From positions 53,320,001-53,384,000 of the forward strand of contig OX597827.1 in the NCBI GenBank assembly GCA_951406725.2: a stretch of 64,000 nucleotides of DNA, given 5' to 3'. Positions within the stretch are counted from its first letter, which is position 1. Each line of letters opens with the position of its first letter. Positions 9,388 to 54,753 of the stretch are shown in pieces. The position numbers and the translations under genes were made by a program. The notes below the pieces were generated by a model. The model saw nothing but the letters and a program-made list of their open reading frames with translations, did no database searches and was not told the DNA's origin. This DNA comes from Octopus vulgaris. Taxonomy: Eukaryota.

Positions 9388-9458
9388 GGGCATATGGCGT
9401 AGTGGTTAAGAGCGCGGACTAGTAACCCCAAGATTCAGAATTCGATTCCAGGCAGTGA

Positions 9459-9505
<47 letters not shown>

Positions 9506-9684
9506 TCGAAAAATACCTTAGGAATGAGAACCCAGGTTCGAAATATCCCCAAGACACCTGATGAAGGCTGGAGGGTATATCAGCCGAAACGCTGTGTTAA
9601 CAAGGAAGATGAGGACAAATATCTGTCAAATGTAAATAATGTAAATAATGTACATAATTCCTCATCTCTTAAATATAGAACTGT
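9388..9684 (+). mobile_element. tRNA-headed SINE family H carrying a hammerhead motif
   Basis: A-box tggcgtagtgg, B-box-like aattcgattcc, internal (AAT)n, hammerhead at 9553-9598 (triplet mutated to GCU); two more copies at 44327-44836. Confidence 0.8.
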
Positions 9685-35446: not shown

Positions 35447-36040
35447 ATGAATAATTATAAGCACGTTGTCACAACACGTGACATTTTCTTCCTTTATTCT
35501 TATTGGAATAATTTGGCAAAATGTTATATAAGTGGCCAACTTTGAACTTTGGAACCATACCTCTGTGAACTCGCAGAAACTAACTTTGCCTCTCAGCTGT
35601 ACCTAACTACATTCCTGGAAAAACAATGAAAATCTTTCTTGGGTTTTTGTTACTCTGCGTAACATGTTTATCAGCATTTGCTCTTGAAAATAGTTATCTA
35701 ATAAGTAAGTAAATGGTTTCTGTATATTCTTCATTCATTTTCTTTCATTTTTTTGTTGTTTTCTGCTTGTCGTCGCACTTTTCATCTGAATGTGTGGTTT
35801 TGTTTTGTCAATAGTTGTATTAACTTGTATAAGAAGGTGGTAAGTACCACGATTAATGTCACATGTCTTTCGACATTTCAACTGACGTGAAATCAAATTG
35901 AATATTGCACATGTTCATAGACATATACACAATCTGCATAGACAAATACGGACCCATACAAATCCATCCATCCATCCATCCTATCTACCTATCTACCTAT
36001 CTACCTATCTATCTACCTATCTATCTACCTATCTATCTAC

Positions 36041-36129
<89 letters not shown>

Positions 36130-36362
36130 CATATTATGTAGACAGAGTTAAAATCCAATCAGTGTCATCTTGAAATATATCTGATTATTTCATCCCAAAT
36201 ATAAGGTTTGTATTATTTGATTCGCTGTCTTAAAAATTGCCAATAGAAGATATATTACATATTTTCTACAATATGAACAATTTCATTACTTCTATTAGCA
36301 AATGGAACACGTGTAATAATGAATAAATAATACCAAAAGTTGTTTCAGATCTAAGGGGCGCA

Positions 36363-36491
36363 ATGCAAAGAAGAAGAGTGGCTGCAAATATACAGTATAC
36401 TCGTAATTCTCATACTTGCAACATTTGCGGGTTTCTTTGTAAATCGTTGGTGGGACTCAAATGTCACGTTCGACAGAAGTATTATGACTGA
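36363..36491 (+). mobile_element. Probable C-terminal zinc-finger remnant of an RTE-like LINE
   Basis: HTCNICGFLCKSLVGLKCHVR followed by a stop; resembles the CxxC..S..GL..H.R LINE C-terminus. Confidence 0.4.
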
Positions 36492-37387
36492 CAAAGGAAG
36501 TGTAAGTTGTCGGATCTTCATATGTCGAAACCGATTGGTTCCTACCAATCGAAATGCTTTACATTTTCTGGGAAGGGAGATAAGGCATCATACTTTTTCC
36601 TAAGGCAAAACATTTTGCAGGTGATTTGTACTGGAAGTGTTTTTATGCTTGCAGGAGAAAGCGATTATATAATGAAAATATGTCTATACATTGTTATCGA
36701 AACAACAGCCAATTTTTTAATTTCCTCAATGTCACTCGATGTAATGAAGGAATTGCTACACATGTAAAATTGCTTGTATTCAATGAAAAGTGTAAGCATT
36801 TTTTAAAGTTTAGTTGAATGGGGGCGATTATGACTTCGAGGTAAATGTATTCTTGCTTTCTTCAATGCAGAAATAAATATTTGTTGTTAATTCTTCCTTT
36901 TTAAGAATCAATTATTCATGTAGACCATGTGCAATAACGTATGAAACGTTGTGGTTCTCATGAGTAAATTCATTTCTTTTTCACTAAAGTTAAGGAATTT
37001 CAGTTTTTCGCATAGACTTCAAGCAGCCGTTCGCTTAAGACGGCCACAAAATGAAACTTTTGTTCTTCTTTTTGATATTGAAATTCCTTGTTAGCTAACC
37101 AAATAATTTCTGTGTGCAATGGCACATATTCAATAAAATTAGTGGTCGGAGAAAATGAGGCGATTGGCCGTAGTTTGCCAACCTTGCTCCCAGGGCATTA
37201 CTGGTGTGAAAAGAAATACCTCACATGAGAGACCCTCCTCTCTTCATACCGATCTTTTTTTATTGTGGAACGTACACAAGATAAGTGTCAACCATCCTAA
37301 TCAATCTACCACACTCATTATTATATCGGTGTTACTGGAACCAATGCGTGAGAATCGCATCAAATATTTACTACCATTTAGTTCGAT

Positions 37388-37730
37388 TAAGGTAACGAGC
37401 TTGCAAAATCATTAACTAACTGGACAAAAGGCTTAGCGGCATTTCGTCCGTCTTTACGTCCTGAGTTTAAATTGGCCCGAAATCGACTTTGCCTTTCATT
37501 CTTTCGGAGAACGATAAAATAAGTACCATCGAACACTGGGGTCGTTGTAATCGAGAAGCCGTCTCCCACAAAATTTCAAGCTCTGTTCCTGTAGTGGAAA
37601 ATATTATTACTTTGGTGGAAGACGACGAAGTGGCAGAATCATTAAAGTGTCAGCCAAAATGCTTAGCGGCATTGCTTCAAGCCTTTTGCGCCTGAGTTTA
37701 AATCTCGCCAAGATCACCTTTGTCTCGCAT
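37388..37730 (+). mobile_element. Two diverged SINE family B copies
   Basis: Heads at ~37388 and ~37612 with gcttagcggc..tgagtttaaat. Confidence 0.65.
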
Positions 37731-38139
37731 TGAGTGTATAAGAATACTATTGGGGATTTCTCTTCATATATATAAGTGTGGTTTCAATTTAGGTAAGGAT
37801 ATTTTGCTCGAGAGTAAAAGTTTGTTTTACGGACTAGATTTTAGACGAATCTAGGACTCAATAGACATTCAAGAGGTAGAAAACGCCTTTAAAAATTAAT
37901 AGTTACACTTCTAAGCGAGTATTGTATTGAGGGACTTAGGTTTTAGATCTAAGTTAAGGCCATTTCACTTTATTTATGCTGTTAATGTCTTGAAACATCA
38001 CACCAGCTCCTTTCTTTTAAAAGCACGGGGTTTTTGTTTCTAGTTCTCTAAAGAAAACTATAATTTATAATTCTGTAGCATCAACTTAAAGCATATTTTA
38101 AGATAAACTTTCAGCTAACAAACAAGTTTATATTTTCAG

Positions 38140-38334
38140 AATACTGTGAAAAATGTTTGGAAGACAGTGTCGTATCTGGATACTATGAACATCCACAACG
38201 TTGTGACGGCTTTGTACAATGCCAGTATGTTAATAAAACATTGACTGCTTTTGAACAGTTTTGCAACGAAGACACATGTTATAATAAAGACACTCAGAAC
38301 TGCGACTATTGTTCAGAAACTACATGCCAGAAAA
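38140..38334 (+). CDS. Pif-like chitin-binding/LamG protein, exon A (chitin-binding type-2 domain 1)
   Basis: tttcag acceptor, gtaagt donor, phase 1/1; YCEKC..GYYEHPQRCDGFVQC..C....YN....CDYC. Confidence 0.88.
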
Positions 38335-38611
38335 GTAAGTATAAACTTAACATTGGATTTTTCGCATCGAAACCAAATTCATTAAAACTTAGTTAATTTA
38401 AAAACTGTTTCTAAGAGTAGTTTTCTTATACACATTCTTAAGACCGACCTCATTGGAAAATTTGGGGGTTACAGTCAAAAGAAGAGGTGAATAAATCAGC
38501 CGTAAATTTTGAAGATAATATTATCACTAATACACTGGAAGCGAGTATTATGTTTAATATAGAGCAACACTCATTTTTACTAAGATAAACACCGTACTAG
38601 TTTATATGTAA

Positions 38612-39008
38612 AGGTGGCGAGCTGGCAGAAACGTTAGCAGGCCTGGCGAAATGCTTAGCGGTATTTCGTCTGCCGCTACGTTCTGAGTTCAAATTCCGCC
38701 GAGATCAACTTTGACTTTCACCCTTTCGGGGTCGATTAAATAAGTACCAGTTACGCACTGGGGTCGATATAATCGACTTAATCCGTTTGTCTGTCCTTGT
38801 TTGTCCCATCTGTGTGTAGCCCCTTGTGGGCAGTAAAGAAATAGGTATTTCGTCTGTCTTTACGTTCTGAGTTCAAATTCCACTGACGTCGACTTTGCCT
38901 TTCATCCTTTCGGGGTCGATAAATTAAGTACCAGTTGCGTACTGGGGTCGAGCTAATCGACTGGCTCCCTCCCCCAAAATTTCGGGCCTTGTGCCTAGAG
39001 TAGAAAAG
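38612..39008 (+). mobile_element. Intronic SINE family B, full-length, with 9-bp TSD
   Basis: tatatgtaa at 38603-38611 and 39009-39017; internally duplicated body. Confidence 0.85.
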
Positions 39009-39100
39009 TATATGTAATATAATTTAATTTGGGATAATCAACAAATACAAACTTTTTTCTTGGTTTCATTGGGCAAAACAAATTTTATTTTTCATTGCAG

Positions 39101-39274
39101 AATGCGATTATCCCACAAAGTTTAAGGATGTTTTCTCTTGCAACAAATATTTTGAATGCGATAACTCGGGTTTCAATTACGAAGCAAAGATTTGCCCACC
39201 TCAAGAAAGATTCGACCAAAAAACATCACGCTGTGTTTCAGATTACAGATGTGTAGGACCTGTTCTCAAGAAAC
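39101..39274 (+). CDS. Pif-like protein exon B (chitin-binding type-2 domain 2)
   Basis: ttgcag / gtatgt, phase 1/1; CDYPTKFKDVFSCNKYFECDNSGFNYEAKICPPQERFDQKTSRCVSDYRC (not in the ORF track). Confidence 0.88.
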
Positions 39275-41960
39275 GTATGTTTACATTTATGCTTTTCCTT
39301 TTACTTATTGTTTCTTTTTCACATCAGATAATTTGATCGTGAAGTCTTCACGATCATATTATATTTCAGTATTTAGTTACGTCGCTTTACTTTCTTAGTT
39401 TATAGCTCTTACCTGATCTCTAAAATATATATTAGTCAAATACAGTGGTCAACTTAAAAAATGTCACCATTTAGTTTGAAAATCGGATAAATATCTTTAC
39501 AGTCATACAAAATTTTAAAATGAGTGAAACAGTATATAGTAGCCATGTCGCTTTAAATTCTGGATTCAAACTCTGCTTAGTGTTGGTCATAGATTCAAGT
39601 ACTGTAGGCGGAAAGTTAATAAATCAAATTGTTTCAAGTAATCTACACAATTAGAAAAATATTACTGAATCTTTTAGCTCTTATAACTCACTGTATATTA
39701 TAGAGCTCCTTGAATCAATTACATATTTACTTTTCAATTGACAGAATTCTGGACTATATGTGGTACTTAGTTATTTTTCTCTTACAATTATGTTACCTAC
39801 TGATGAACTATGTCTATAAATATGTATGCATGTTCTTTTTACTGATTAGCCATCGTGACTTGAAGGTTCATATTCTGAAAAAGCTTCTAAATATCGTTAG
39901 ATGATAAAACATAACAGCTCAACTCAAATATTCCTAGTGGTTTGTTGTGAATAGATTTTTTTAATGATGGATGATAGAGATTCAAGTATAGCATGATGGA
40001 TTTGATGTTATGGTAAGGGGTGTAAGTCTACATATTGCATATTAAGAATGGAGTACTTCATAATGGATTAAAACCTAAAAAATAAACAGAGATAGTGTGA
40101 CTGCTCTCCGCAAAACGTAATCAATCACTTTTTTCCTGGAAATATTTTTTTAAATGGTCACACTTGCTGAAGATTTCTGAGCCAATATTTGGATCGTCCG
40201 CAGATGTATCCATACAGACACAGCACAGGCAACGCTTTCAGGTGTTTTTGGATAAAGAGTTCAGAAATAACCCAGTAGGTTTACCATTAATTCCTTCAAT
40301 TAATTCCATTAATTCATAGGTCCCGCTAGTAGATCCCGTATGTAATAGGGCGAATTCACATAGTTAGTGATAATTTACAAATTTTGAGTTTATTGTTAGA
40401 AGTAAGACTTCTTGTGGCTATGTTACAGATGTATGAATTAACTAGTAAAACTAATATAAAAGATTTATTTTGCCTATGGTACATTTTTGTAATGTTCCTT
40501 GATGACAACCAGTTGGATTAAAGAGAAAAGGCTAATGTAATGAAAATAAAATAATAAAAATGTGGTTATTTGTTTACTCAATTAAAAATACGTGTAAAGA
40601 TTTTAAGCTATGAGAAAGATATATAATACCCCCTATATATAAGAAAAATAAAACTTAAAAGAAGAAAAAGAGAGGGAAAGTACAGATGAAGAAAAATCAT
40701 TTTGTACCATCTCTGAATTGTGAGATATTATTTGCTATTGGTAGATCCATGAAAATAAATTGCACCCCCGGCCTTGGAAGCCTTTTAAAGAGCGGTTTTT
40801 AAATGTTCTCTCTCTCAGACTGGTAAATTTCTCATTGGAACAAAAAATTTCACAAGTTTTCTGAATAATTCCCAAAGAACTATTATAAAAGACTCATGTT
40901 TACTTATTTAAGTACATTTTTGAAATGAATATAGCCTGTTAAAAACCAACAAAGTCTTTGCTATTTTTGCTCATTATCGGATATTTTTAAACGTTGATAG
41001 ATCTGGTTATACTAATGAAAGATTGAAGTTTAATAATTTATCTATTGATTCTTTTCAATATATTCTCCCCCCTTGATAATAAACATAACAAAAGATATTA
41101 TGATTTGATATATGTATCCATAGTGAAGATTTATTTGTTGAAAAAAAGTAAATAAAGATTTGAGAGTAAGGTAAAATTATAGGCAGTCTTTAATTTTTGA
41201 AATAGTAACTTGATAACTAGGAATCTTTTGGCGATGATTTTTACAAACTGGAAATACTGGCTACCCTCGTTTCAACTCGAAGGAAAACTGACGCTTCCAG
41301 AATAACTTATATTTAGCATATCAAATAAATGTTTACTTTTATGCTACATTTCACCTATAGTTTACTAAAATCGGGATAAGTCTTACGAAATAAAGTTAAC
41401 TTAAATAGATTTAATTTGCATAAGCATTTTACCGATCACTTTAACGCGAATTTAATGACGAAAGGTTCTGTGTTATAAAAAGACATACAATTATCTGAAT
41501 ACAGTGAGATGACTGTAGATGTTTTGAAAACAACTTGCACGTACAAGTACTACCAGTAGAAAGCTCTGCATACTGGAAGCCAGCAAGTGTATGGGGTCAA
41601 CAGGAGAGAATGTGCGCCTTTTCAGGGCCTACCTCTTGACGGCATCATTGCGAACTGTAATGAGGCCCCACTTACTAGATGAACTGGTTATCAGATACAG
41701 CTCAATATTCTTCTAGCCGTAGCTCATCGTCTTTTTTTAATCAAATCCAATGGCTAACCTTTTCCACTGTAGTTTGGATATCACTCATGGTGTTATTTGC
41801 TTTACAATAAGTTAGGCCTAACGATAACTACAGTCGCCTCACATTGTGTCCAATGAATCCTCTACATCCGACTTCGATTGGAAAATGCTCCGCTTTCCAG
41901 CCTGCGTCTTCCTCGAGGAGGTTTGCAAAACGTTCAATCTTTCGCATTTCTTTTTTTCAG

Positions 41961-42107
41961 CGTGTTCTGAAACATTCAAGCCGTCTAAATCTCTGGGCAA
42001 ATTCTGGCAGAAGGATGCTATAGGTTGGATTGAAAAGGAGTGTGGTCCTGGTACTGGTTTCGACGTCAAATCATGCACTTGTGCTAAAATGATTCCTGTG
42101 AATGATG
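41961..42107 (+). CDS. Pif-like protein exon C (third, partial chitin-binding module)
   Basis: tttcag / gtaagt, phase 1/1; CSETF..WIEKECGPGTGFDVKSCTC. Confidence 0.88.
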
Positions 42108-42897
42108 GTAAGTTCGAAAGCAACTCATTTAATCAATTATATCAAAAAAGTAGATGTGTGTGTAGGAGCGGAGGAAAATGTCTTTGAGTGAGAATGATTC
42201 GAAGTCTTAATACAGACAAAAGAGATGAATGGCAGGAAGATCATACTGTGTGTATGCACAGAGTTCCCTTTTCGGAATGATATATAAGTAGAGATGAAAA
42301 AAAGTATTGAGAAATTTGTATTTCGGAGTAGTATAGAATATAGGACTTGCATGTCAGTAGCAGATGAGGTATGGAATCAAGGTAGGATCGGAGAGCCAGA
42401 TACTAAGTGAAGAGAAAGCAGAATTAGCTAGGAAATTTTAGTTCTAGTTTTTAGTACCTACCAAAGTGCAGAATTTGCCTACAGTGACAGGTTCAATATT
42501 GTATTGGACTACATTTTATGAATATAGGTAATTAGCTTCGTTATATATGCCTCTATTCAGAATGGGAATCGAATTGTACTCAACTTTATCTTTTTATGAT
42601 CTTCTGTGGATCGCCAATACTCATTTTTTACAGATATACCTTTGTCATATACCTCTGTTACACATTTTGTTTATATTTGAACTGTAACTCAACCTGTTTA
42701 CTATATACATATTGGGAATTAACTTGATACATTCTAATTGTATATAACGAATAAATGGTGATTAGCATTTTAATGAAATTAAATTTTTACTCAAACCATT
42801 AGACTCGATTTCTTTATGACTTTCTAACAATCGAACTTCTATGAAATTTTAAGATATTTGTTACTGTTCATGTTTGTTTTTGATTTTTTTTTTCTAG

Positions 42898-43256
42898 ATA
42901 AAACTTGTCTAATTCTTGATATGCCACTGAAGAACAATTGTGTTGAACTCTCTCATAAATATTGGGTGAATAATCTTAACGTTACGTTTTCTGATGGTGC
43001 TGCTCAATTTACTACTGGTTCTGGCCTGGTGATTCCAGCTTTGATAAACAACGATTTAGGTGAGAATGTTGAAATTAGTATGAACTTTTATATTAAAAGT
43101 TCTCCCAAAGATTCGTACACCATTGTGACTAACGGAAATTGCGATCGTAAGCCTTCACTCAGTATTGGAGTCGAAAATGCAAACACCTTCCCAACAGTTT
43201 TTGGCTTTATGAAATTAGAAGGAAATGTGTCCCCAGTACAGATAAGGACAAGAGTG
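42898..43256 (+). CDS. Pif-like protein exon D (laminin-G/ConA-like domain, N-part)
   Basis: ttctag / gtaagt, phase 1/0; CLILDMPL..WVNNLNVTF..GAAQF..LVIPAL..IVTNGNCD..PSLSI. Confidence 0.88.
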
Positions 43257-44063
43257 GTAAGTGAAAGAAGATATATTGTTTTAAAAATATATTTTTTATT
43301 TAAGTAGTCTGAAATTGAATAGTAAAACGTAACTGATACAAAGCGTGATGATGTATATCTCTAATGGTAACAAATGTCCATAAATCAAAGAATTAACTAA
43401 TGCTTATTTCCCGCAAGTATATTTCAGTAAATGGCTTTAATTTCTACAGTCAAATGTATTATCCATTAATCGGGGACTAATCTTATTGACTTAAGGATCG
43501 TATCATTCCAAGCAAACCGATGATAATATTTGTGATCGGAAGTGAATCTGTTTCAACATATTGTGTTTCTGATGTCTACAACGGTTAACCGTAGAATATT
43601 AACCCCCTTATTGGGGTTAATTTTCAATAACACAATGTACTTTTGCTTAAAATTTCAACTGATTAAACATCCTTTTCGGTTCACCACTTTAAGTATAGTA
43701 ACCTGCACTTAATTATATGACATATTTGTTCACCATAACATCGACAGTTACACGTTTTAACATAATATAAATTGTCAGTGATAAGAAATACAGATCTTAG
43801 AATATCATCGATATGAAGCGAGCGCTACGAATAGAGAAGTAAGCTTGGCATTAACCGGGTTTTTGTTTCCTTCAATTTACTTCCGGTTAAAATATATGTA
43901 CGTCCCAACACACCATTTTTCTACTCTTTTAAGCTTGAAGAAAAATAAATATTAATTCTGTTTTCCTATTCATAGACTAGGGAGACAAAATTAGTATTCA
44001 TCGTTATATTGCCAATAGAAACCATAGGTAAGAATTAAAATAATAATATTTAATTTATCATAG

Positions 44064-44160
44064 GCATTAAACCAATGGTATAGCATCAGATTTGGAAAGT
44101 CAAGCGATAAAGTGCGAATGTACTTGAATAACAATCTTCAAAAAGAAATAAAAATTGAGG
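44064..44160 (+). CDS. Pif-like protein exon E (LamG)
   Basis: atcatag / gtaagt, phase 0/1; ALNQWYSIRFGKSSDKVRMYLNNNLQKEIKIE. Confidence 0.85.
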
Positions 44161-44326
44161 GTAAGTGAAATTATAAAATCAGAATTTAATAAAAATATAA
44201 AATAAATAACAAGTTTAAAATATTTTCAGATCAACCAGATCCCTTAACTTTTGTGTCGTGTATTTCAGTAAATCAATACTAATTCAATAGAACATATTCA
44301 TAAAACATGTAAGATTAATTCATTGT

Positions 44327-44455
44327 ACATTATTTACATTTGACGGATATTTGTCCTCATCTTCTTTGTTGTTGCCACCACATTTCGGCTGATATACCCT
44401 CCAGCCTTCATCAGGTGTCTTGGGGAAATTTCGAACCTGGGTTCTCATTCCTAAG

Positions 44456-44521
<66 letters not shown>

Positions 44522-44836
44522 TCACTACCTGGAATCGACCTCGGAATCTTGGGGTTAGTAGCCCGCGCACTTAAACACTACGCCATATGCCCGTGGGCAT
44601 ATGGCATAGTGGTTAAAAGCGCGGGCAGTGACCTGAATAATAATAATAATAATAATAATAACATCAAAAAATACCTTAGGAATGAGAACCCATGTTCAAA
44701 ATCTCCCCAAGACACCTGATGAAGGCTGGAGAGTATATCAGCCGAAACGTTGTGTTAACAACAAAGAAGATGAGGACAAATATCCGTCTAATGTAAATAA
44801 TGGACATAACTCCTCATCTCTTAAATATAGAACTGT
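44327..44836. mobile_element. Head-to-head inverted dimer of hammerhead SINE family H with 13-bp TSD
   Basis: Minus copy 44327-44592, plus copy 44595-44836; attaattcattgt at 44314-44326 and 44837-44849. Confidence 0.85.
44711..44756 (+). ncRNA. Minimal type-I hammerhead ribozyme with palindromic stem III
   Basis: gacac-CTGATGA-a-ggctg..cagcc-GAAAC-GTT-gtgtt; stem I gacac/gtgtt, stem II ggctg/cagcc, AACGTT palindrome. Confidence 0.78.
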
Positions 44837-45676
44837 ATTAATTCATTGTGCCTGATACTTATGTTTTATCGTATTGTTACCTTTCTCTCTCATTACTATG
44901 AGAAATATATCGATACCAATACTACTAGATGTACACTTTATGAAATTAATCAATTATATCCCCTAAATTAAAAGCCAAATATCTAAGTGAATAAAGCATT
45001 ATATAGTAACTGGGTTCATATATGATGCAGGCACGTCTTTGTATTTGAATAGGAGATTTATTTTTACCGGACTCTGTTGTTGTTGGACACGCCGAAGAGG
45101 AGGTTTAACTTACATTCACTTACCATCATGAAGCCGAATATACAGTTGCCGAAAAAGACATATATACTTTTAAAAATATAGACTTTCTATTGTATATATT
45201 TGTGGGTCAAATCTTTTATATTTTGTAATCTCCAAATAGTTTGTGCCTGGTTTTCGATTGGCGATATTATTTATACATTTAGAAATAGTGTAATTCTCCA
45301 TCAATCTTTTAGACCTTGTTGTACTACTAACCTCTTATTAGTGCAATCAGTGGGAAGACAAGAACAAAACCGTATCTAGACATATACATATTGAAAAAAG
45401 ACTTTATAACGAGTAGCAATTAAGCGTATTTTCTATGGCGTCTTTAGACAAGACATTTAATTCTAAGCTAAGTTCACATAGATATACAAAATCGATATAG
45501 AAAATAAGTTTCTAGTAAGGGAATATTATCTGTCATAGACGGTTGTTACTTTTAAGGATTGGTTTATCGCTCTTCTCTTTGGTGACAAGAAGCTAGAGAT
45601 AAGCTCTAGATGTTTGGACCTATCTTGGATATCGTAGAAGGATTTAGAGATATTACAATTTTGCTTTAATTTTCAG

Positions 45677-45756
45677 GTGCTATCGAAGTAGTTGACAGTG
45701 CATTGAGTATTGGAAAACCTTGTGCTCAAAACGTTTTCGTTGGTTCAGTAAACGAG
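45677..45756 (+). CDS. Pif-like protein exon F (LamG)
   Basis: tttcag / gtgagt, phase 1/0; GAIEVVDSALSIGKPCAQNVFVGSVNE. Confidence 0.85.
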
Positions 45757-46268
45757 GTGAGTTACATTTTTCTTACACAATGTCATAGATTGGAAATGGA
45801 TTCATAATGCAGTAATTTATGTCACATATTTGTAGTATTGTGTGTCTTACAAAATTCTCATACAACAGACAATACCATACATTCACAATATAGTGTTCAA
45901 TATTCTGACTCATACGATACAGATTTTAAGAATGCACATCCGTTTCATGAATACATCCGCTATAGTATCAGAGGAACTACAACAAATCTACAATAATTTA
46001 ATCTACGACCATAGAATCTAATTTACTATTATAAAACTTATTCTACGTCTATATGATCAAATTACAATATTACCTTATATACAACTACATAATTTACCTA
46101 CCAATGTACAGTGTATCATAGTATTTTACATTTTAACCTACAATAATACGATGTAATATATAGATACATTATGTTATATATCGCTTTTCAATCTAATAAA
46201 TTAATACTGCATAACAAATAAGAAAATAAATGAAATTATAAAATTCTGTCTTTTTGCTCTTTCAACAG

Positions 46269-46298
46269 TTCAAGCTCACCAAATGCCCATCATGGTAA
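46269..46298 (+). CDS. Pif-like protein terminal exon G
   Basis: Polypyrimidine tract plus caacag acceptor, phase 0; FKLTKCPSW-stop. Confidence 0.8.
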   Translation, partial: FKLTKCPSW

Positions 46299-49451: not shown

Positions 49452-49989
49452 TATTATGAAATATTGTACATGTGATGAGTTTGTTATATTTCTAAGTACA
49501 GCAAGTGTGGTGTATAACTTGATATGTCATACGCCACACTAATCTTGATACCTGCAGCTACGATTACACTTTGTGTTAAAGGAGAATAGTTTGTTGTGTA
49601 ACCACTGAATCTTACCGTATAAGGATTCAGTGCAACTTTGACGTGAGACGTCCGGATGAATTGTGGATAACATTAGTATGTAGAGAGGAGTGATATTTTC
49701 TGCAGAAGTGTGTTAATAAAAGCAGTTTTAAAGAACGTGAGTGAGGCGAAATAAGTCCATGCGGTGAATAAAAATTAGTATTGAGTTGGAGATTTTTCAG
49801 TGGATGTTACAAAGCAGTAGACCAACATAAACATGCGATCCAAGAAATTGAAGACTCAAAGAGATTTTAAGCAGGTAGCTAAGCTTGACAGTCAAAATCA
49901 ACATAACTTTGGCTGAACTTCAAAGGGACAAGAGAATAAAATAAGAAAAGCAAATATTCAATAGATATCATTATATGTAAGATGTATTA

Positions 49990-52896
49990 GTGGCTACTGA
50001 GAAAGGAAATAGCTTTGAGCTAGCAGATCCTTATAGGTTGGAATTTCCGAACGCTCCATTGTGGACATGGTCAAACAGCGACGGATCTTCCAGGTCATAT
50101 ATAGATAGGATACTAATTAGAAAAGTAGACAGAAAAATAGCTAAGTGTCCACAGTTTTACCTGGTCAGCTACAGTGATCATAAAATGGTCACCTGTAATC
50201 TTGACATAGATAAGGTTAAAAATAGAGGCTCCGGTTACTGGAAACTTAATACGTCCCTTTTGGTGATTAAGGAGTACAGAGACCGGATTAGGACTATAAT
50301 TCAGAGGGCGCTATCTGGTGCCATCATTAATAACAAATGGTGGTATGCCCTCAAGCGAGCCATCAAATTCGAGTCTATTAGATATAGCATAGGATTAGTG
50401 GCTAGAGAGGCTAGGGGGGAATCTACTCTAGTTAAGGAATTAGAGGAAGCCTTGAAAACTGGCTCTGCGGTTCAGGTGACGGCCAAGAGACTGGCGTTAA
50501 ACCAGCACCTCGAGGCCAAACACATGGGCTGCATTGTCAGGGCTAGGATCCGCGCAATGGGTTGTGAAGGAATCAACGCCGTGAGATGGGCCCGAGTGGT
50601 GGAAGCTCAGCGTAGTAACGACGCCACGATTCGATCTATGACAAACCAACAAGGTGAGTTGATAAACGAGCCCGAGGAGATGTGTGAGGCCTTTCAGGAG
50701 CACTTCGCTCAGCTTTTCGGTGAGTGCGGCGGACTGGATAGGAGGAGGGCCTTTACGGACCTCCTCGACGGGCTGCTGCGCTTATCGGGGCGAGATGCGG
50801 AGGGCTGTGAAGGGCCAATCACGCCTGGGGAGGTGGTTGAGGCGATGGCGGACTGCGGCGCGGGCAAGGCGCCGGGTTTAGATGGTCTACCCTATGAGTT
50901 ATATAAGAGTATGCCAGACTTGTTCGGGCACCTACTGGCGGAGGTCTATACGAACTGGCAGCAGAACGGGTTCATACCCAGATCTGTGCGCCGGGGAGTA
51001 GTGACACTCGTCAGAAAGGACCCGAGCAAGGGGGAGTGCATTGATAATTTCAGGCCCATCACTCTGCTAAGCACAGAGTTGAAGATTTTGGCCAAAGTGT
51101 TATCGAAAAGATTGGCGCGTGTCGCGGATGGTCTGATCGGGGAGGCACAGACATGTGCCGTTCCCGGCAGAACCATTCAGGATAATCTCCATCTTATGCG
51201 GTACACTATAGAGAGGTTTAATAGTGATTCTGGCAAGGGTGGGGCACTGGTCCATTTAGACCAATCTAAAGCATTGGATAGGGTCGACCATCGCTACCTG
51301 GTATCTGCCCTGGCACAGTTCGGGCTGGGCCTTGGCTTCCTCAGGTGGATTATCCAAATTTACGACAACATCGACTCGGTAGTTCGGGTGAACGGCTTCT
51401 TGTCGAAGCCGTTCGACATCAAGCGCTCGGTTCGTCAAGGGTGTCCGCTCTCCCCGCTTCTGTACGTGATGGCTCTTGAGCCATTACTGCGAAAACTGAG
51501 CGGCATCCCGAGACAGCCAGGTAGTGGAAAATCGGTGTCAGCGTACGCGGATGACAACACCACCATCGTAACCGAAATGGATCACCTACGTAAAGTAGAC
51601 AAGGCCATAGAGGTTTACGAGACGGTGACAGGAGCAAAAGTTAATCGCGAAAAGTCAGTCGGCTTGCAACTCGGCACCTGGAGAGGCAAGTCGATGCCTC
51701 CTGACAGCGTCGTGGGACGTTGGACGGAGGGTCCGATTAAGTTGCTAGGGGTTTGGTTCGGTCCAGACCTCCAAATAGAGAAGAATTGGGGCGAGGTATC
51801 GAGCAGGGTGGCTGCAGTAACCAAGATCTGGTCTTGGCGGTGGCTATTCCTGAAAGGGAGGGCGGAGGTAGCCAATGTGTTTATCGCATCGGTTATCACC
51901 TACCGCCTTTCCGTCGTTCCTTGCCCTGATTCGTAGTTGATCAAGTTGGAAAGACAGCTCTTCTACTTCTTGTGGAAGGGCGGGAAACCACTTGTGAAAC
52001 GCTCTACTTGCTGTCAACAACCGTTAAAGGGTGGGCTAGGGATGCCTTGGCTGATGATGCGCAGACATGCGCTGAGGTTAAGACATCTGTGGCTCTACCT
52101 GGATGGTGAACAGGTGTGGTCTCCGCTAGCAAAACTGATGTTTCCCAAGTTCACTAGTTTCGGTGGATGGGAAACCTGGCTGAATCGTAGATCGAAACTG
52201 GGCACATGGTACACGGAGTGTCGCAAGGCTCTCCTGCTATTCCGTCGCTCGGGCAACGCCTGCGGTGGGGGTTCCACCACATTCTTCTATAGAGGGTTGG
52301 TAGAGGCGGAATGGGAAGATACCTTGGGGGAAACCCTAGGTCTCGACGATAATCAGCTGGCCAGTCTGTTCCGATGTACGTTCGAGCCGAAGACACTGGA
52401 CAACTTCCAGATGTCTCTGGCATGGCAATGCTACAGAGGAGCTCTACCTGTTCGGGATAAACTCGCAAGGCACGGTGGCCAAGACAGTCCTATATGTCCA
52501 AGATGCGAGCGGGATAGGGAAACCGTCCCGCACGCTATTGTTCATTGTTCGGTCGTGTCTGAGGTGTGGGTTTATGCCGAACAGTTGTTGTCAAGCACAC
52601 GAAGAGTACAGCTATCGACTGAGTCTATTACAAAAATTGACCCACCAGATTTCCTCGCGAAAGAAGGTAAAAATTGTTTTCTCGTTGTAGTAGCAATTGC
52701 GAAAGAGGTGATATGGAAGACGAGAATGAAAGGTTTACGGTCAGGCAAGTTCATCTCCGGCCCTGGTTTGATGAATTACTTCATCTTTCACCTGAAAAGG
52801 AAGATAGGGCTGGAGAGAAAATGCCTGACTAAGAGAGTGTATGAAGAACGATGGAAAGATGTAGCACGAAAGTTGCGAGTGGATGATACCACATAA
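49990..52896 (+). pseudogene. Tx1-type ORF2 (endonuclease C-part, RT, zf-RVT) with a single in-frame TAG at 51934-51936
   Basis: SYIDRI, SDHKMV, GYWKLN, KAPGLDGLP, NFRPITLL, LDQSKALDRV, VRQGCPLSP, AYADD, GGLG, CPRC..ETVPHAIVHC; the two ORFs are in the same frame. Confidence 0.9.
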
Positions 52897-53199: not shown

Positions 53200-54753
53200 G
53201 TTGATCCTGTATCAGTTATTATCTGGTTATTATTGTGTATCGGTGAGTGTCTATAGTGACTTTTGTTATTGTTGAACTGTTACATTCGTTTTGTTGAAAA
53301 ACTGTGATAACTGCGTGTGGCAGTCCTTTTTGTTACAATTTCCCCTTGTTTGAAGTGGGAATTATTGTTTTTCTGTGGGGCGTTAGTCTAAAGGCATTTT
53401 TATTCCGTGGGGCATATTTTCCCATTAATTTATTTTCCGAGGGGCGTTAGCTCAAATCTTGTATTTAAACAATGTTTGACTCAATTGAGTCGGAAAAAAA
53501 ACTGTCAGGACCAATAATTGGATATGCCAATCTTATCGTCACCTATGGCACCAGTGCAGCCTCCAGCTACACCAAAAGCCAATTTTGCTGATGCTGCAAA
53601 AACCTAAACAAGAAACCTCAACACTGAGTTGAGTGAAATAAGCAAATTTAAAGGGATATTGAAAAACGAGGGGATGGAAGTCCAAACAACCCTCCAATTG
53701 AAATTACGCACTTAACAAACAGGACAAACATAATTTTCAAAACATATATTGTAAAAGAAGAAAAACAAGACGCGGCGTCTATAGAAGCGGTAGAGAGGTG
53801 TCTCTGACCAATCTGGTTGGACATCATCTGCATAACACGTGTTAAGAAGTTTGCTGCCATCGAGGTGAGATTCACAAACGAAGAGAATGCCAGGCAGCAT
53901 TCTACGAAGACTTTAAGGACGTCAAAAGTAAAGATAAATGAAATACCACCAGAAGTAGATGCTGCCTGGCTAGTGGCAGCAGCAGTTGTGGCTTGGAGGA
54001 CAAAATGTCGATCCTCCAAGCAACAGCAACCGAAAAGCAAAATTGGCAGGGGTAAGGACTCGAAATGTTAATCCAAGCAGCCCCTGCTGATTTAGACGAA
54101 ATTCCAGGAGTGATCCAGGTGAGAGACACAATGCTAATAGCGATGGTAGAGGGGAGGAAGCCTCGCTGTTTGAAATGTGGCAAGAAAGGCTACATAAGGA
54201 CAGAATGCGGCTCTACCCCCAGAAAAAATGGTAGCTCCCCACCATCAGAAGAGGAAAAAACAACAACACCAACTACAACGGAGGAAATGACGAAAAAGGA
54301 AAAGTCTCCCACGAAGGAAATAGACAGAGATAGCGACGAAGTAAAAGGTGAGAGGTGGAGCACAAAATGTGGGAAAAGAAGAAACCCACAACCCACATAT
54401 GCAAGCACCTCATCACATGCACACAAAAAGAAAAAATCTACAACAGTACCAGAAAAAAAAAAGGAAGACAGAAACGTAATGGCAGTCAAAGAAAGTAACT
54501 CAAGGCGGCAGCTTGATTAGATGTGGTACAAACAGCAAAAGCTGTGGACTGTTATAAAGGACCAAAAGGGATAAATATATTTGCCACAGACATGAAAAAC
54601 TATCAGATTTTGAAATCTGAATTCCATCATAACATAGGCCCTCTTCGAAAAGACGTTTCCCCCAAAATTTTTGAGGGCCTATCAAATACCATCCCACAAT
54701 CCAGCGCAGACGAATTGAGAGATGGCCATAACAGGCCATCTCGCACCATATAA
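53200..54753 (+). mobile_element. Decayed ORF1 (gag-like CCHC) of a Tx1-like element
   Basis: VEGRKPRCLKCGKKGYIRTEC knuckle and KVKINEIPPEVD, related to the other ORF1 copies; multiple frameshifts. Confidence 0.7.

What the first reader, a model, noticed from the sequence alone, without database searches (positions are those of the whole stretch)
44314..44849. Single-event inverted dimer of the hammerhead SINE inside a host intron
Seen: head-to-head copies centred on atatgccc-gt-gggcatat, bounded by one 13-bp TSD, so both were inserted together. The copies differ: the plus copy lacks the B-box segment and has an intact hammerhead, while the minus copy has the full head and a mutated hammerhead. 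Known: inverted 5' segments are typical of Penelope-type integration. Inference: the pre-mRNA carries a sense-strand hammerhead that a ~200-bp hairpin could mask, and which could be edited by ADAR, about 170 nt from a splice donor.
Basis: partly seen in the sequence, partly recalled or inferred. Interest (0 to 1): 0.7.

Follow-up and report, generated by a model that had tools for sequence, protein, structure and literature searches.

The report
Penelope retrotransposon end mimicking a SINE
The inverted pair is a routine insertion of two end-repeats of an octopus Penelope retrotransposon, with no sign of a role for the host gene, but this transposon carries a tRNA-derived head and lacks T-runs, so it is likely copied by RNA polymerase III, which would be unusual for a protein-coding element.

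Summary
In detail: two head-to-head arms, one 13-bp target duplication, in intron 6 of an octopus chitin-binding/LamG-like gene. The 'SINE' is the pseudo-LTR of an autonomous Penelope/Poseidon-type element. It follows the GIY-YIG ORF's stop codon and also opens the ORF (ATG and hammerhead included).

Head-to-head pairs are the family's routine form: 8 of 18 insertions in an unbiased 1 Mb, none tail-to-tail. Of 87 selected loci 49 are pairs, 26 with TSDs; the ~30-bp tail is on one arm only. The same centre recurs at 80 or more loci and is a palindrome native to the element. This architecture is published.

A host-regulatory role is unsupported. The minimal hammerhead is of a type inactive as a monomer, lies 590 nt from the donor, and is intact in 46 of 127 arms anyway. 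Editing is plausible but untested.

The new part is family-level. The pLTR holds a tRNA-derived A/B-box head, 5' ends pile up at its start (47 of 87 arms), and the ~2.8-kb sense strand has no conserved T4 run (control family 15 of 43). This suggests Pol III transcription of a protein-coding retroelement (about 40%).

The parts
44314..44326 (+). Left copy of the 13-bp target-site duplication; its last 3 nt (TGT) also match the element, a microhomology at the inverted arm's start site
44327..44594 (-). Inverted, tail-less pLTR arm: 2-nt extension of the element's upstream sequence, full tRNA-like head, (AAT)20 tract, ORF start, damaged hammerhead; ends at body position ~135-137
44521..44592 (-). 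tRNA-derived head with A box (~44585-44575) and B box (~44543-44532); the family head is about 60% identical to genomic tRNA-Arg genes
44374..44419 (-). Damaged minimal hammerhead (changes at the cleavage triplet and stem I); antisense to the host pre-mRNA
44585..44602 (.). Junction palindrome atatgccc-gt-gggcatat; its core (44588-44599) is the TGCCC-AC-GGGCA palindrome native to the Penelope element just upstream of the head
44595..44836 (+). Tail-bearing pLTR arm; 34-nt deletion between 44626 and 44627 removes the B box (GGC microhomology against the family majority)
44682..44836 (+). First ~51 codons of the Penelope ORF (MRTHVQNLPKTPDEGWRVYQ...), cut at the tail end
44712..44755 (+). Minimal type I hammerhead: stem I 4-5 bp, CUGAUGA, unpaired A, stem II 5-6 bp, GAAA, palindromic ACGU in place of stem III; predicted cut after 44751
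   Evidence: description in PMC4209133
44807..44836 (+). Penelope 'tail' (~30-33 nt), present on this arm only
   Evidence: PMC8557442, PMC11167929
44837..44849 (+). Right copy of the TSD; its first 4 nt (ATTA) equal the ORF continuation of the full element
44064..44160 (+). Host exon 6 (chitin-binding type 2 x3 + LamG-like protein, orthologue of O. sinensis LOC115219132)
44161..45676 (+). Host intron 6 (GTAAGT...TTTTCAG) holding the insertion
45677..45756 (+). Host exon 7

Best explanation
The insert is two pseudo-LTRs of an octopus Penelope/Poseidon-type retrotransposon lying head to head inside one target duplication, likely made in a single event in which both cut DNA strands primed reverse transcription, and likely neutral for the host gene. 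Shown: the repeat is both the 3' end and the start of an RT + GIY-YIG ORF; pairs with one TSD and one tail are the family's usual form; the arms mostly share subfamily letters; neither arm is a subset of the other. Inferred: the endonuclease makes a staggered cut (TSD mode 12 nt). One 3' end primes at the outer start site (tail end, body ~167) and the other at the inner site (~135-141), on the same RNA or on RNAs from one source. Both cDNAs run to the RNA's 5' end at the tRNA-like head, and their 3' ends anneal through the element's own TGCCC/GGGCA palindrome, giving the recurrent centre. The 34-nt B-box loss is a microhomology deletion during or after insertion. The short 'SINE-like' copies are likely run-off products ending at a promoter in the head, probably a Pol III type-2 promoter.
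For: Head and body follow the GIY-YIG ORF stop in most of 30 loci fetched with an endonuclease fragment. RT with DKG and YVDD motifs, RVT_1 E=3e-11; relatives share one Pfam architecture, including an 836-aa Anolis protein. The body continues into the ORF in 6 of 30 N-terminal loci. Unbiased 1 Mb: 8 of 18 clusters head-to-head, 0 tail-to-tail (9 further stretches held none). Selected loci: 49 of 87 pairs; TSD of 8 nt or more in 26 of 49 pairs vs 4 of 38 single copies, null 11 of 400; broader search 23 of 49 vs 4 of 38, null 18 of 300. Inverted arm ends at 130-145 in 37 of 43, full tail in 1 of 43. Exact 26-nt centre at 80 places, control 0, with the tail on either side (7 right, 5 left, 8 not seen, of 20). 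Arms concordant at diagnostic position 51 in 35 of 39 pairs, p=2e-5; shared derived letters 26 vs 9.0+-2.6. The inverted arm reaches further 5' than the tail arm in 12 of 43 pairs. In vitro, Anolis Poseidon cuts and extends both strands and starts at two sites flanking the tail (PMC11167929). Both junctions are present in 3 of 4 public DNA runs, one about 8% diverged in the flank.
Against: No experiment on this element. 4 of 39 pairs are discordant at position 51, so two different RNAs or later conversion occur at times. Within-pair divergence (7.7%) is only slightly below between-pair divergence (8.6%). The selected loci were picked by similarity to three tail-bearing queries, which biases the tail arms. 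TSDs were not found in 23 of 49 pairs. PMC3846280 (passages) explains such palindromic junctions by self-priming instead. No empty site was seen, so the TSD is not verified against a pre-insertion allele. Neutrality rests on the absence of any special feature, not on RNA data.
Confidence: 0.8

Rival explanations
1. Self-priming/fold-back: one cDNA folds at the TGCCC/GGGCA palindrome and copies itself back to about 30 nt short of the target junction; later deletions made the arms differ.
For: The junction sits exactly on the palindrome; arms are mostly concordant; self-priming was proposed for rotifer Penelopes (PMC3846280).
Against: A fold-back arm cannot hold sequence absent from the first cDNA, yet the inverted arm reaches further 5' in 12 of 43 pairs, sometimes into the ORF end (L242, L253; L215). 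In this locus each arm holds sequence the other lacks. 4 of 39 pairs are discordant at position 51.
Confidence: 0.2
2. The short copies are a true, self-propagating SINE: solo pLTRs are transcribed by Pol III from the tRNA head and mobilised in trans by the Penelope protein. This is compatible with the dual-priming model and differs only in the source RNA.
For: 47 of 87 head-bearing arms stop at -8..+8 of the head, only 13 go further; A and B boxes are conserved; 2 of 18 unbiased clusters carry ORF sequence; schistosome SINE-like elements combine a Pol III promoter with a hammerhead (PMC6765202 passages).
Against: The head is part of the autonomous element itself. Both diagnostic variants occur in ORF-linked copies (by eye; not tested by a tree). 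The Anolis protein needs ORF sequence beyond the start sites, which solo copies lack. T4 absence extends over the whole ORF.
Confidence: 0.3
3. One reading: this copy was co-opted; the duplex masks a sense hammerhead, and ADAR editing or cleavage modulates splicing or stability of the host pre-mRNA.
For: Sense-strand intact core in an intron; very stable duplex; metazoan A-to-I editing mainly targets young repeats (PMC9989829); the insertion is shared by 3 of 4 DNA runs.
Against: A single minimal HHR showed no cleavage or needs the element's protein. The only partner motif here is antisense and damaged. An intact core is kept in 46 of 127 arms. About 20,000 similar pairs are expected genome-wide (8 in 1.09 Mb scaled to 2.8 Gb). 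The host protein has the same length (386 aa) in two related octopuses and its exons map cleanly here.
Confidence: 0.07
4. Two independent insertions, one beside the other.
For: The arms differ at 10 of 137 positions; Penelopes tend to insert near earlier copies (PMC6765202).
Against: One TSD spans both arms and there is none at the junction; 8 head-to-head vs 0 tail-to-tail (p=0.008); the tail is on one arm only; the centre recurs.
Confidence: 0.03

Closest known systems
Penelope/Poseidon PLEs (Poseidon_Ac of Anolis, PMC11167929; Pen2a_Av of Adineta, PMC3846280; general scheme in PMC8557442)
   Same: [quoted passage not shown]
   Different: The pLTR here holds a tRNA-derived A/B-box head, and the sense strand has no conserved T4 run. 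The described promoters are Pol II-like (TATA-less LINE-type in D. virilis, PMC2377424 passages; putative TATA/Inr in Adineta).
Minimal hammerheads of metazoan PLEs (PMC4209133)
   Same: CUGANGA core, unpaired base before stem II, G-C closing pair, palindromic helix III remnant, short helix I; dual motifs 100-700 bp apart on opposite strands were already reported in Schistosoma.
   Different: Octopus is not named in the text parts read or in the one supplement searched; no tRNA head is mentioned there.
Schistosome SINE-like hammerhead elements (SM-alpha/Sj-alpha; review PMC6765202)
   Same: Pol III-type promoter next to a type I hammerhead in a short, abundant repeat.
   Different: Those are described as non-coding repeats in tandem; here the same stretch is the end repeat and ORF start of an autonomous element and inserts as inverted pairs.
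Non-LTR retrozymes (PMC7229834; bioRxiv 10.64898/2026.07.22.740005)
   Same: Short type I hammerhead repeats proposed to derive from PLE pLTRs.
   Different: Retrozymes are tandem arrays giving circular RNAs; here tandem arrays were not seen in the unbiased sample, and pairs are inverted.
Octopus tRNA-derived retroposons of Ohshima and Okada 1994 (seen only as a reference-list entry; names OK/OR1/OR2 and an Arg origin for OR are recalled)
   Same: tRNA-derived head in an octopus repeat; the best tRNA matches here are Arg.
   Different: Identity with any of those families could not be tested; a Penelope link is not known to me for them.

Membership tests
Penelope-like element, Penelope/Poseidon clade | Single ORF with PLE-type RT (DKG, YVDD) | tested here: met
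Penelope-like element, Penelope/Poseidon clade | C-terminal GIY-YIG endonuclease | tested here: met
   aligns to residues 651-806 of an 836-aa Anolis protein, 29% identity, E=3e-24, across its VYRIPCSCG...YIG and SAIAEH motifs; the local Pfam copy gave no GIY-YIG hit
Penelope-like element, Penelope/Poseidon clade | pLTR at both ends, containing the ORF start and a hammerhead | tested here: met
Penelope-like element, Penelope/Poseidon clade | Inverted 5' copy, tail on one end, short TSD | tested here: met
Penelope-like element, Penelope/Poseidon clade | Placement in an RT phylogeny | not tested
   no tree built; clade assigned from domain order and best named relatives
tRNA-derived SINE | tRNA-derived head with A and B boxes | tested here: met
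   45-46 of ~75 positions identical to tRNA-Arg, z about 7, best of 27 distinct tRNAs from 30 loci; boxes conserved in 53 heads; not a foldable tRNA gene (0 of 17 loci)
tRNA-derived SINE | Non-autonomous element distinct from its partner, sharing only the 3' tail | tested here: not met
   head, middle and tail are all part of the autonomous element
tRNA-derived SINE | Pol III transcription | not testable with these tools
   indirect only: 5' end pile-up, T4 absence
tRNA-derived SINE | Short copies act as source genes | tested here: inconclusive
   both variants seen in ORF-linked copies by eye; no tree
Minimal type I hammerhead (PLE type) | Core CUGANGA...GAAA, NUH site, stems I and II, palindromic helix III remnant | tested here: met
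   plus arm; not met in the minus arm; below Rfam thresholds
Minimal type I hammerhead (PLE type) | Self-cleavage | not testable with these tools
   literature on relatives: none as monomer, protein-assisted
Non-LTR retrozyme | Tandem arrays of hammerhead units | tested here: not met
   none among 18 unbiased clusters

The most novel reading that the evidence does not exclude
This is an autonomous, protein-coding retrotransposon transcribed end to end by RNA polymerase III from a captured tRNA gene in its pseudo-LTR. Selection removed every Pol III terminator (T4) from its ~2.8-kb sense strand, and its run-off cDNAs have seeded tens of thousands of SINE-like copies, about 20,000 of them ready-made long hairpins that could feed octopus ADAR editing.
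Probability: 0.4. Interest if true: 0.8.

Novelty: new variant of a known kind. Interest (0 to 1): 0.5.

Why it matters
The locus itself is ordinary. The family matters in three ways. (1) If Pol III makes the element's RNA, it is a natural case of an uncapped Pol III transcript encoding an ~820-aa protein, or at least of a Pol III-made full-length template. I found no such case in the searches; Repbase/Dfam were not available. (2) Thousands of short inverted pairs make the open question of how Penelope inverted ends arise (dual priming vs self-priming) testable by counting, and the counts here favour dual priming at the two start sites shown in vitro. (3) Part of what is annotated as SINE in octopus may be Penelope end-repeats, and their insertion mode produces long duplex RNA by default.

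Tried and rejected
Rfam at gathering and E-value thresholds: no hammerhead or tRNA. ARAGORN: 0 genes in 17 loci. Local Pfam gave no GIY-YIG or LamG hit on the fragments; the LamG label comes from the precomputed PF13385 on P0002. A metagenome scan for relatives found none, so no outside control DNA for the T4 test. Sequencing-run search: no RNA holder on record. RNA-like runs were not examined, so splicing, editing and cleavage at this locus remain open. The first screen of the random sample used a query contaminated with another repeat and was redone. One row of alignment (L255) was given on the wrong strand and is ignored. The T4 test on single natural copies was not significant: 3 runs vs 5.8 or 3.3 expected, p=0.13 and 0.57; those 3 runs are private to one copy each. 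G4 runs are also rare, in both this and the control family. The A after the tail (45 of 50) cannot separate microhomology from cut-site preference. PMC5785218 is not held. Earlier-findings look-ups returned nothing. Rejected: rarity of the pair, sequential insertion, an independent SINE with only a Penelope tail, selection on this hammerhead.

Full report
Observation. The 13-bp duplication lies at 44314-44326 and 44837-44849, and the arms meet at atatgccc-gt-gggcatat (44585-44602). The arms are 92% complementary over 140 nt, plus the microsatellite and the head, and fold at -306 kcal/mol. The plus arm lacks 34 nt with the B box; the minus arm lacks the last ~30-33 nt. The plus arm has a minimal type I hammerhead with a predicted cut after 44751. 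Rfam does not detect it; the call rests on the description in PMC4209133 (parts 1-2 of 4 read). The host is an eight-exon gene on the + strand, matching O. sinensis LOC115219132 and an O. bimaculoides protein, both 386 aa. The insert lies in intron 6, 153-166 nt from the donor, but the hammerhead site is 590 nt away.

What the repeat is. One related locus (L015) held an endonuclease-like fragment between its arms. Searching with it gave 30 loci, in most of which the ORF's stop codon is followed after about 35 nt by the same head and body. Upstream lie an RT with DKG and YVDD motifs and a C-terminal region aligning to the GIY-YIG part of an Anolis protein. In 6 of 30 loci found with the N-terminal region, the body runs on into the ORF: the ATG lies before the hammerhead and the 'tail' is coding sequence. 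So the 'hammerhead SINE' is the pseudo-LTR of an autonomous Penelope/Poseidon-type element of about 820 codons. The element itself reads TGCCC-AC-GGGCA across the head's start, which is the core of the finding's centre.

How common the pair is. In 100 evenly spaced 10-kb stretches of contigs C1-C8 there were 18 clusters: 8 head-to-head, none tail-to-tail, 10 single. Nine more stretches held none. Scaled up, that is roughly 46,000 insertions and 20,000 pairs, a rough figure from 18 events. Among 87 loci selected by three tail-bearing queries (one duplicate dropped), 49 are pairs. A TSD of 8 nt or more was found in 26 of 49 pairs, 4 of 38 single copies and 11 of 400 random pairs of positions; 11 of the 26 are 12 nt long. 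The inverted arm ends at body position 130-145 in 37 of 43 cases and has the tail in 1. A 26-nt version of the centre occurs exactly at 80 places, possibly a capped count, with the tail on either side. Inverted pLTRs, one-sided tails, TSDs and junction palindromes are described in PMC8557442 and PMC3846280 (passages), and opposite-strand hammerhead pairs in PMC4209133.

Mechanism. PMC11167929 (parts 1-2 of 4 read) shows that Anolis Poseidon cuts and extends both target strands and starts reverse transcription at two sites that flank the tail. The data here fit one start site being used on each strand. The arms share subfamily letters more than chance: 35 of 39 concordant at position 51; 26 shared derived letters vs 9.0+-2.6. 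They therefore mostly come from one RNA or one source, though 4 of 39 disagree. The inverted arm reaches further 5' than the tail arm in 12 of 43 pairs, the tail arm further in 19, and 12 are equal or unresolved. Simple fold-back cannot give the first class without later deletions. Annealing of the two cDNA 3' ends at the native palindrome would give exactly the observed centre. These steps are inferred.

Host role. Nothing singles this copy out. An intact core survives in 46 of 127 arms. A lone minimal hammerhead did not cleave in vitro, and the Anolis one needs the element's protein. Both junctions are held by contigs of 3 of 4 public DNA runs, one of them about 8% diverged in the left flank; the fourth run's listed pieces do not reach the junctions, and no empty site was among the rows shown. 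The insertion is therefore old and shared. A-to-I editing of the duplex is plausible because young repeats are the main metazoan targets (PMC9989829 passages), but no RNA was examined.

What is new. The head is tRNA-derived: 45-46 of ~75 positions match genomic tRNA-Arg genes, best among 27 distinct tRNAs, with A and B boxes conserved in 53 heads and matching the consensus quoted in PMC8969392 (passages). Of 87 head-bearing arms, 47 end within -8..+8 of the head start and 13 go further, as expected if the template RNA begins there. Runs of four T, the Pol III terminator (established knowledge), are nearly absent from the sense strand: 24 vs 123 expected in 59 kb from 39 non-independent copies. 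No T4 site is conserved (0 of 12 and 0 of 7 T3 sites in overlapping halves), against 15 of 43 in a second Penelope-like family of equal T content in this genome (Fisher p 0.024 to 0.003). That control was not checked for a tRNA head. Codon-shuffle nulls give P(0) = 0.012 and 0.002. Against: single natural copies show no significant deficit, G4 is also rare, there is one control family, and the test was chosen after seeing the head. D. virilis Penelope uses a LINE-like internal promoter (PMC2377424 passages). Searches listed no tRNA-headed or Pol III-driven PLE. The octopus repeat papers PMC13282606 (part 1, passages, one supplement), PMC8967140 and PMC6962438 (passages) do not describe it. One supplement of PMC4209133 could not be searched, bioRxiv supplements are closed, and Repbase/Dfam and Ohshima and Okada 1994 were not seen, so the family may already be catalogued under a SINE or Penelope name. 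Other papers seen: bioRxiv 10.64898/2026.07.22.740005 (part 1 of 5), PMC10886601, PMC7229834 and PMC6765202 (passages).

Verdict. Observation confirmed; interpretation partly supported. The locus is an ordinary member of a known insertion type (interest about 0.15 alone). The family is a new variant of a known kind with a testable chance, about 40%, of being a Pol III-transcribed coding retroelement. Overall interest 0.5.

Noticed in passing
window 9388-9684 (+): Single full-length copy of the same pLTR with tail and no TSD found; its hammerhead has a change at the cleavage triplet region, and the 6 nt before its head equal the tail's last 6 nt.
   Followed up: partly
87 selected loci: TSDs go with inverted pairs (26 of 49) and are rare for single copies (4 of 38), suggesting that single copies close their 5' end without the second target strand priming.
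   Followed up: partly
L015:843-1669: One TSD encloses an inverted arm and a forward arm carrying ~270 nt of the endonuclease ORF end; this led to the autonomous element.
   Followed up: yes
L262 / L266 (G000:C11 about 56,265,000-56,268,000): Two long copies of the element lie head to head with ORF sequence on both arms.
   Followed up: no
L052:683-1054: Inverted pair of a different, very abundant short repeat with only 15 nt between the arms; orientation and TSD not worked out.
   Followed up: no
L069:5062-6863 and L321-L340: A second Penelope-like RT family (660 candidates in the first look) with normal T4 content; used as control.
   Followed up: partly
window 49981-52893 and 53808-54517 (+): Non-LTR element with long endonuclease/RT frames (RVT_1 E=2e-26) and a downstream zinc-knuckle-like frame.
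   Followed up: no
window 35626-46295 (+): Eight-exon gene for a protein with a hydrophobic N-terminus, chitin-binding type 2 domains and a LamG-like C-terminus; only two relatives found, both octopus, among proteins of 227-2000 aa.
   Followed up: partly
family heads: The head's anticodon-loop position reads CTACTAA, matching no Arg anticodon although the overall best matches are tRNA-Arg; tRNA-Thr(AGT) scores nearly as well.
   Followed up: no
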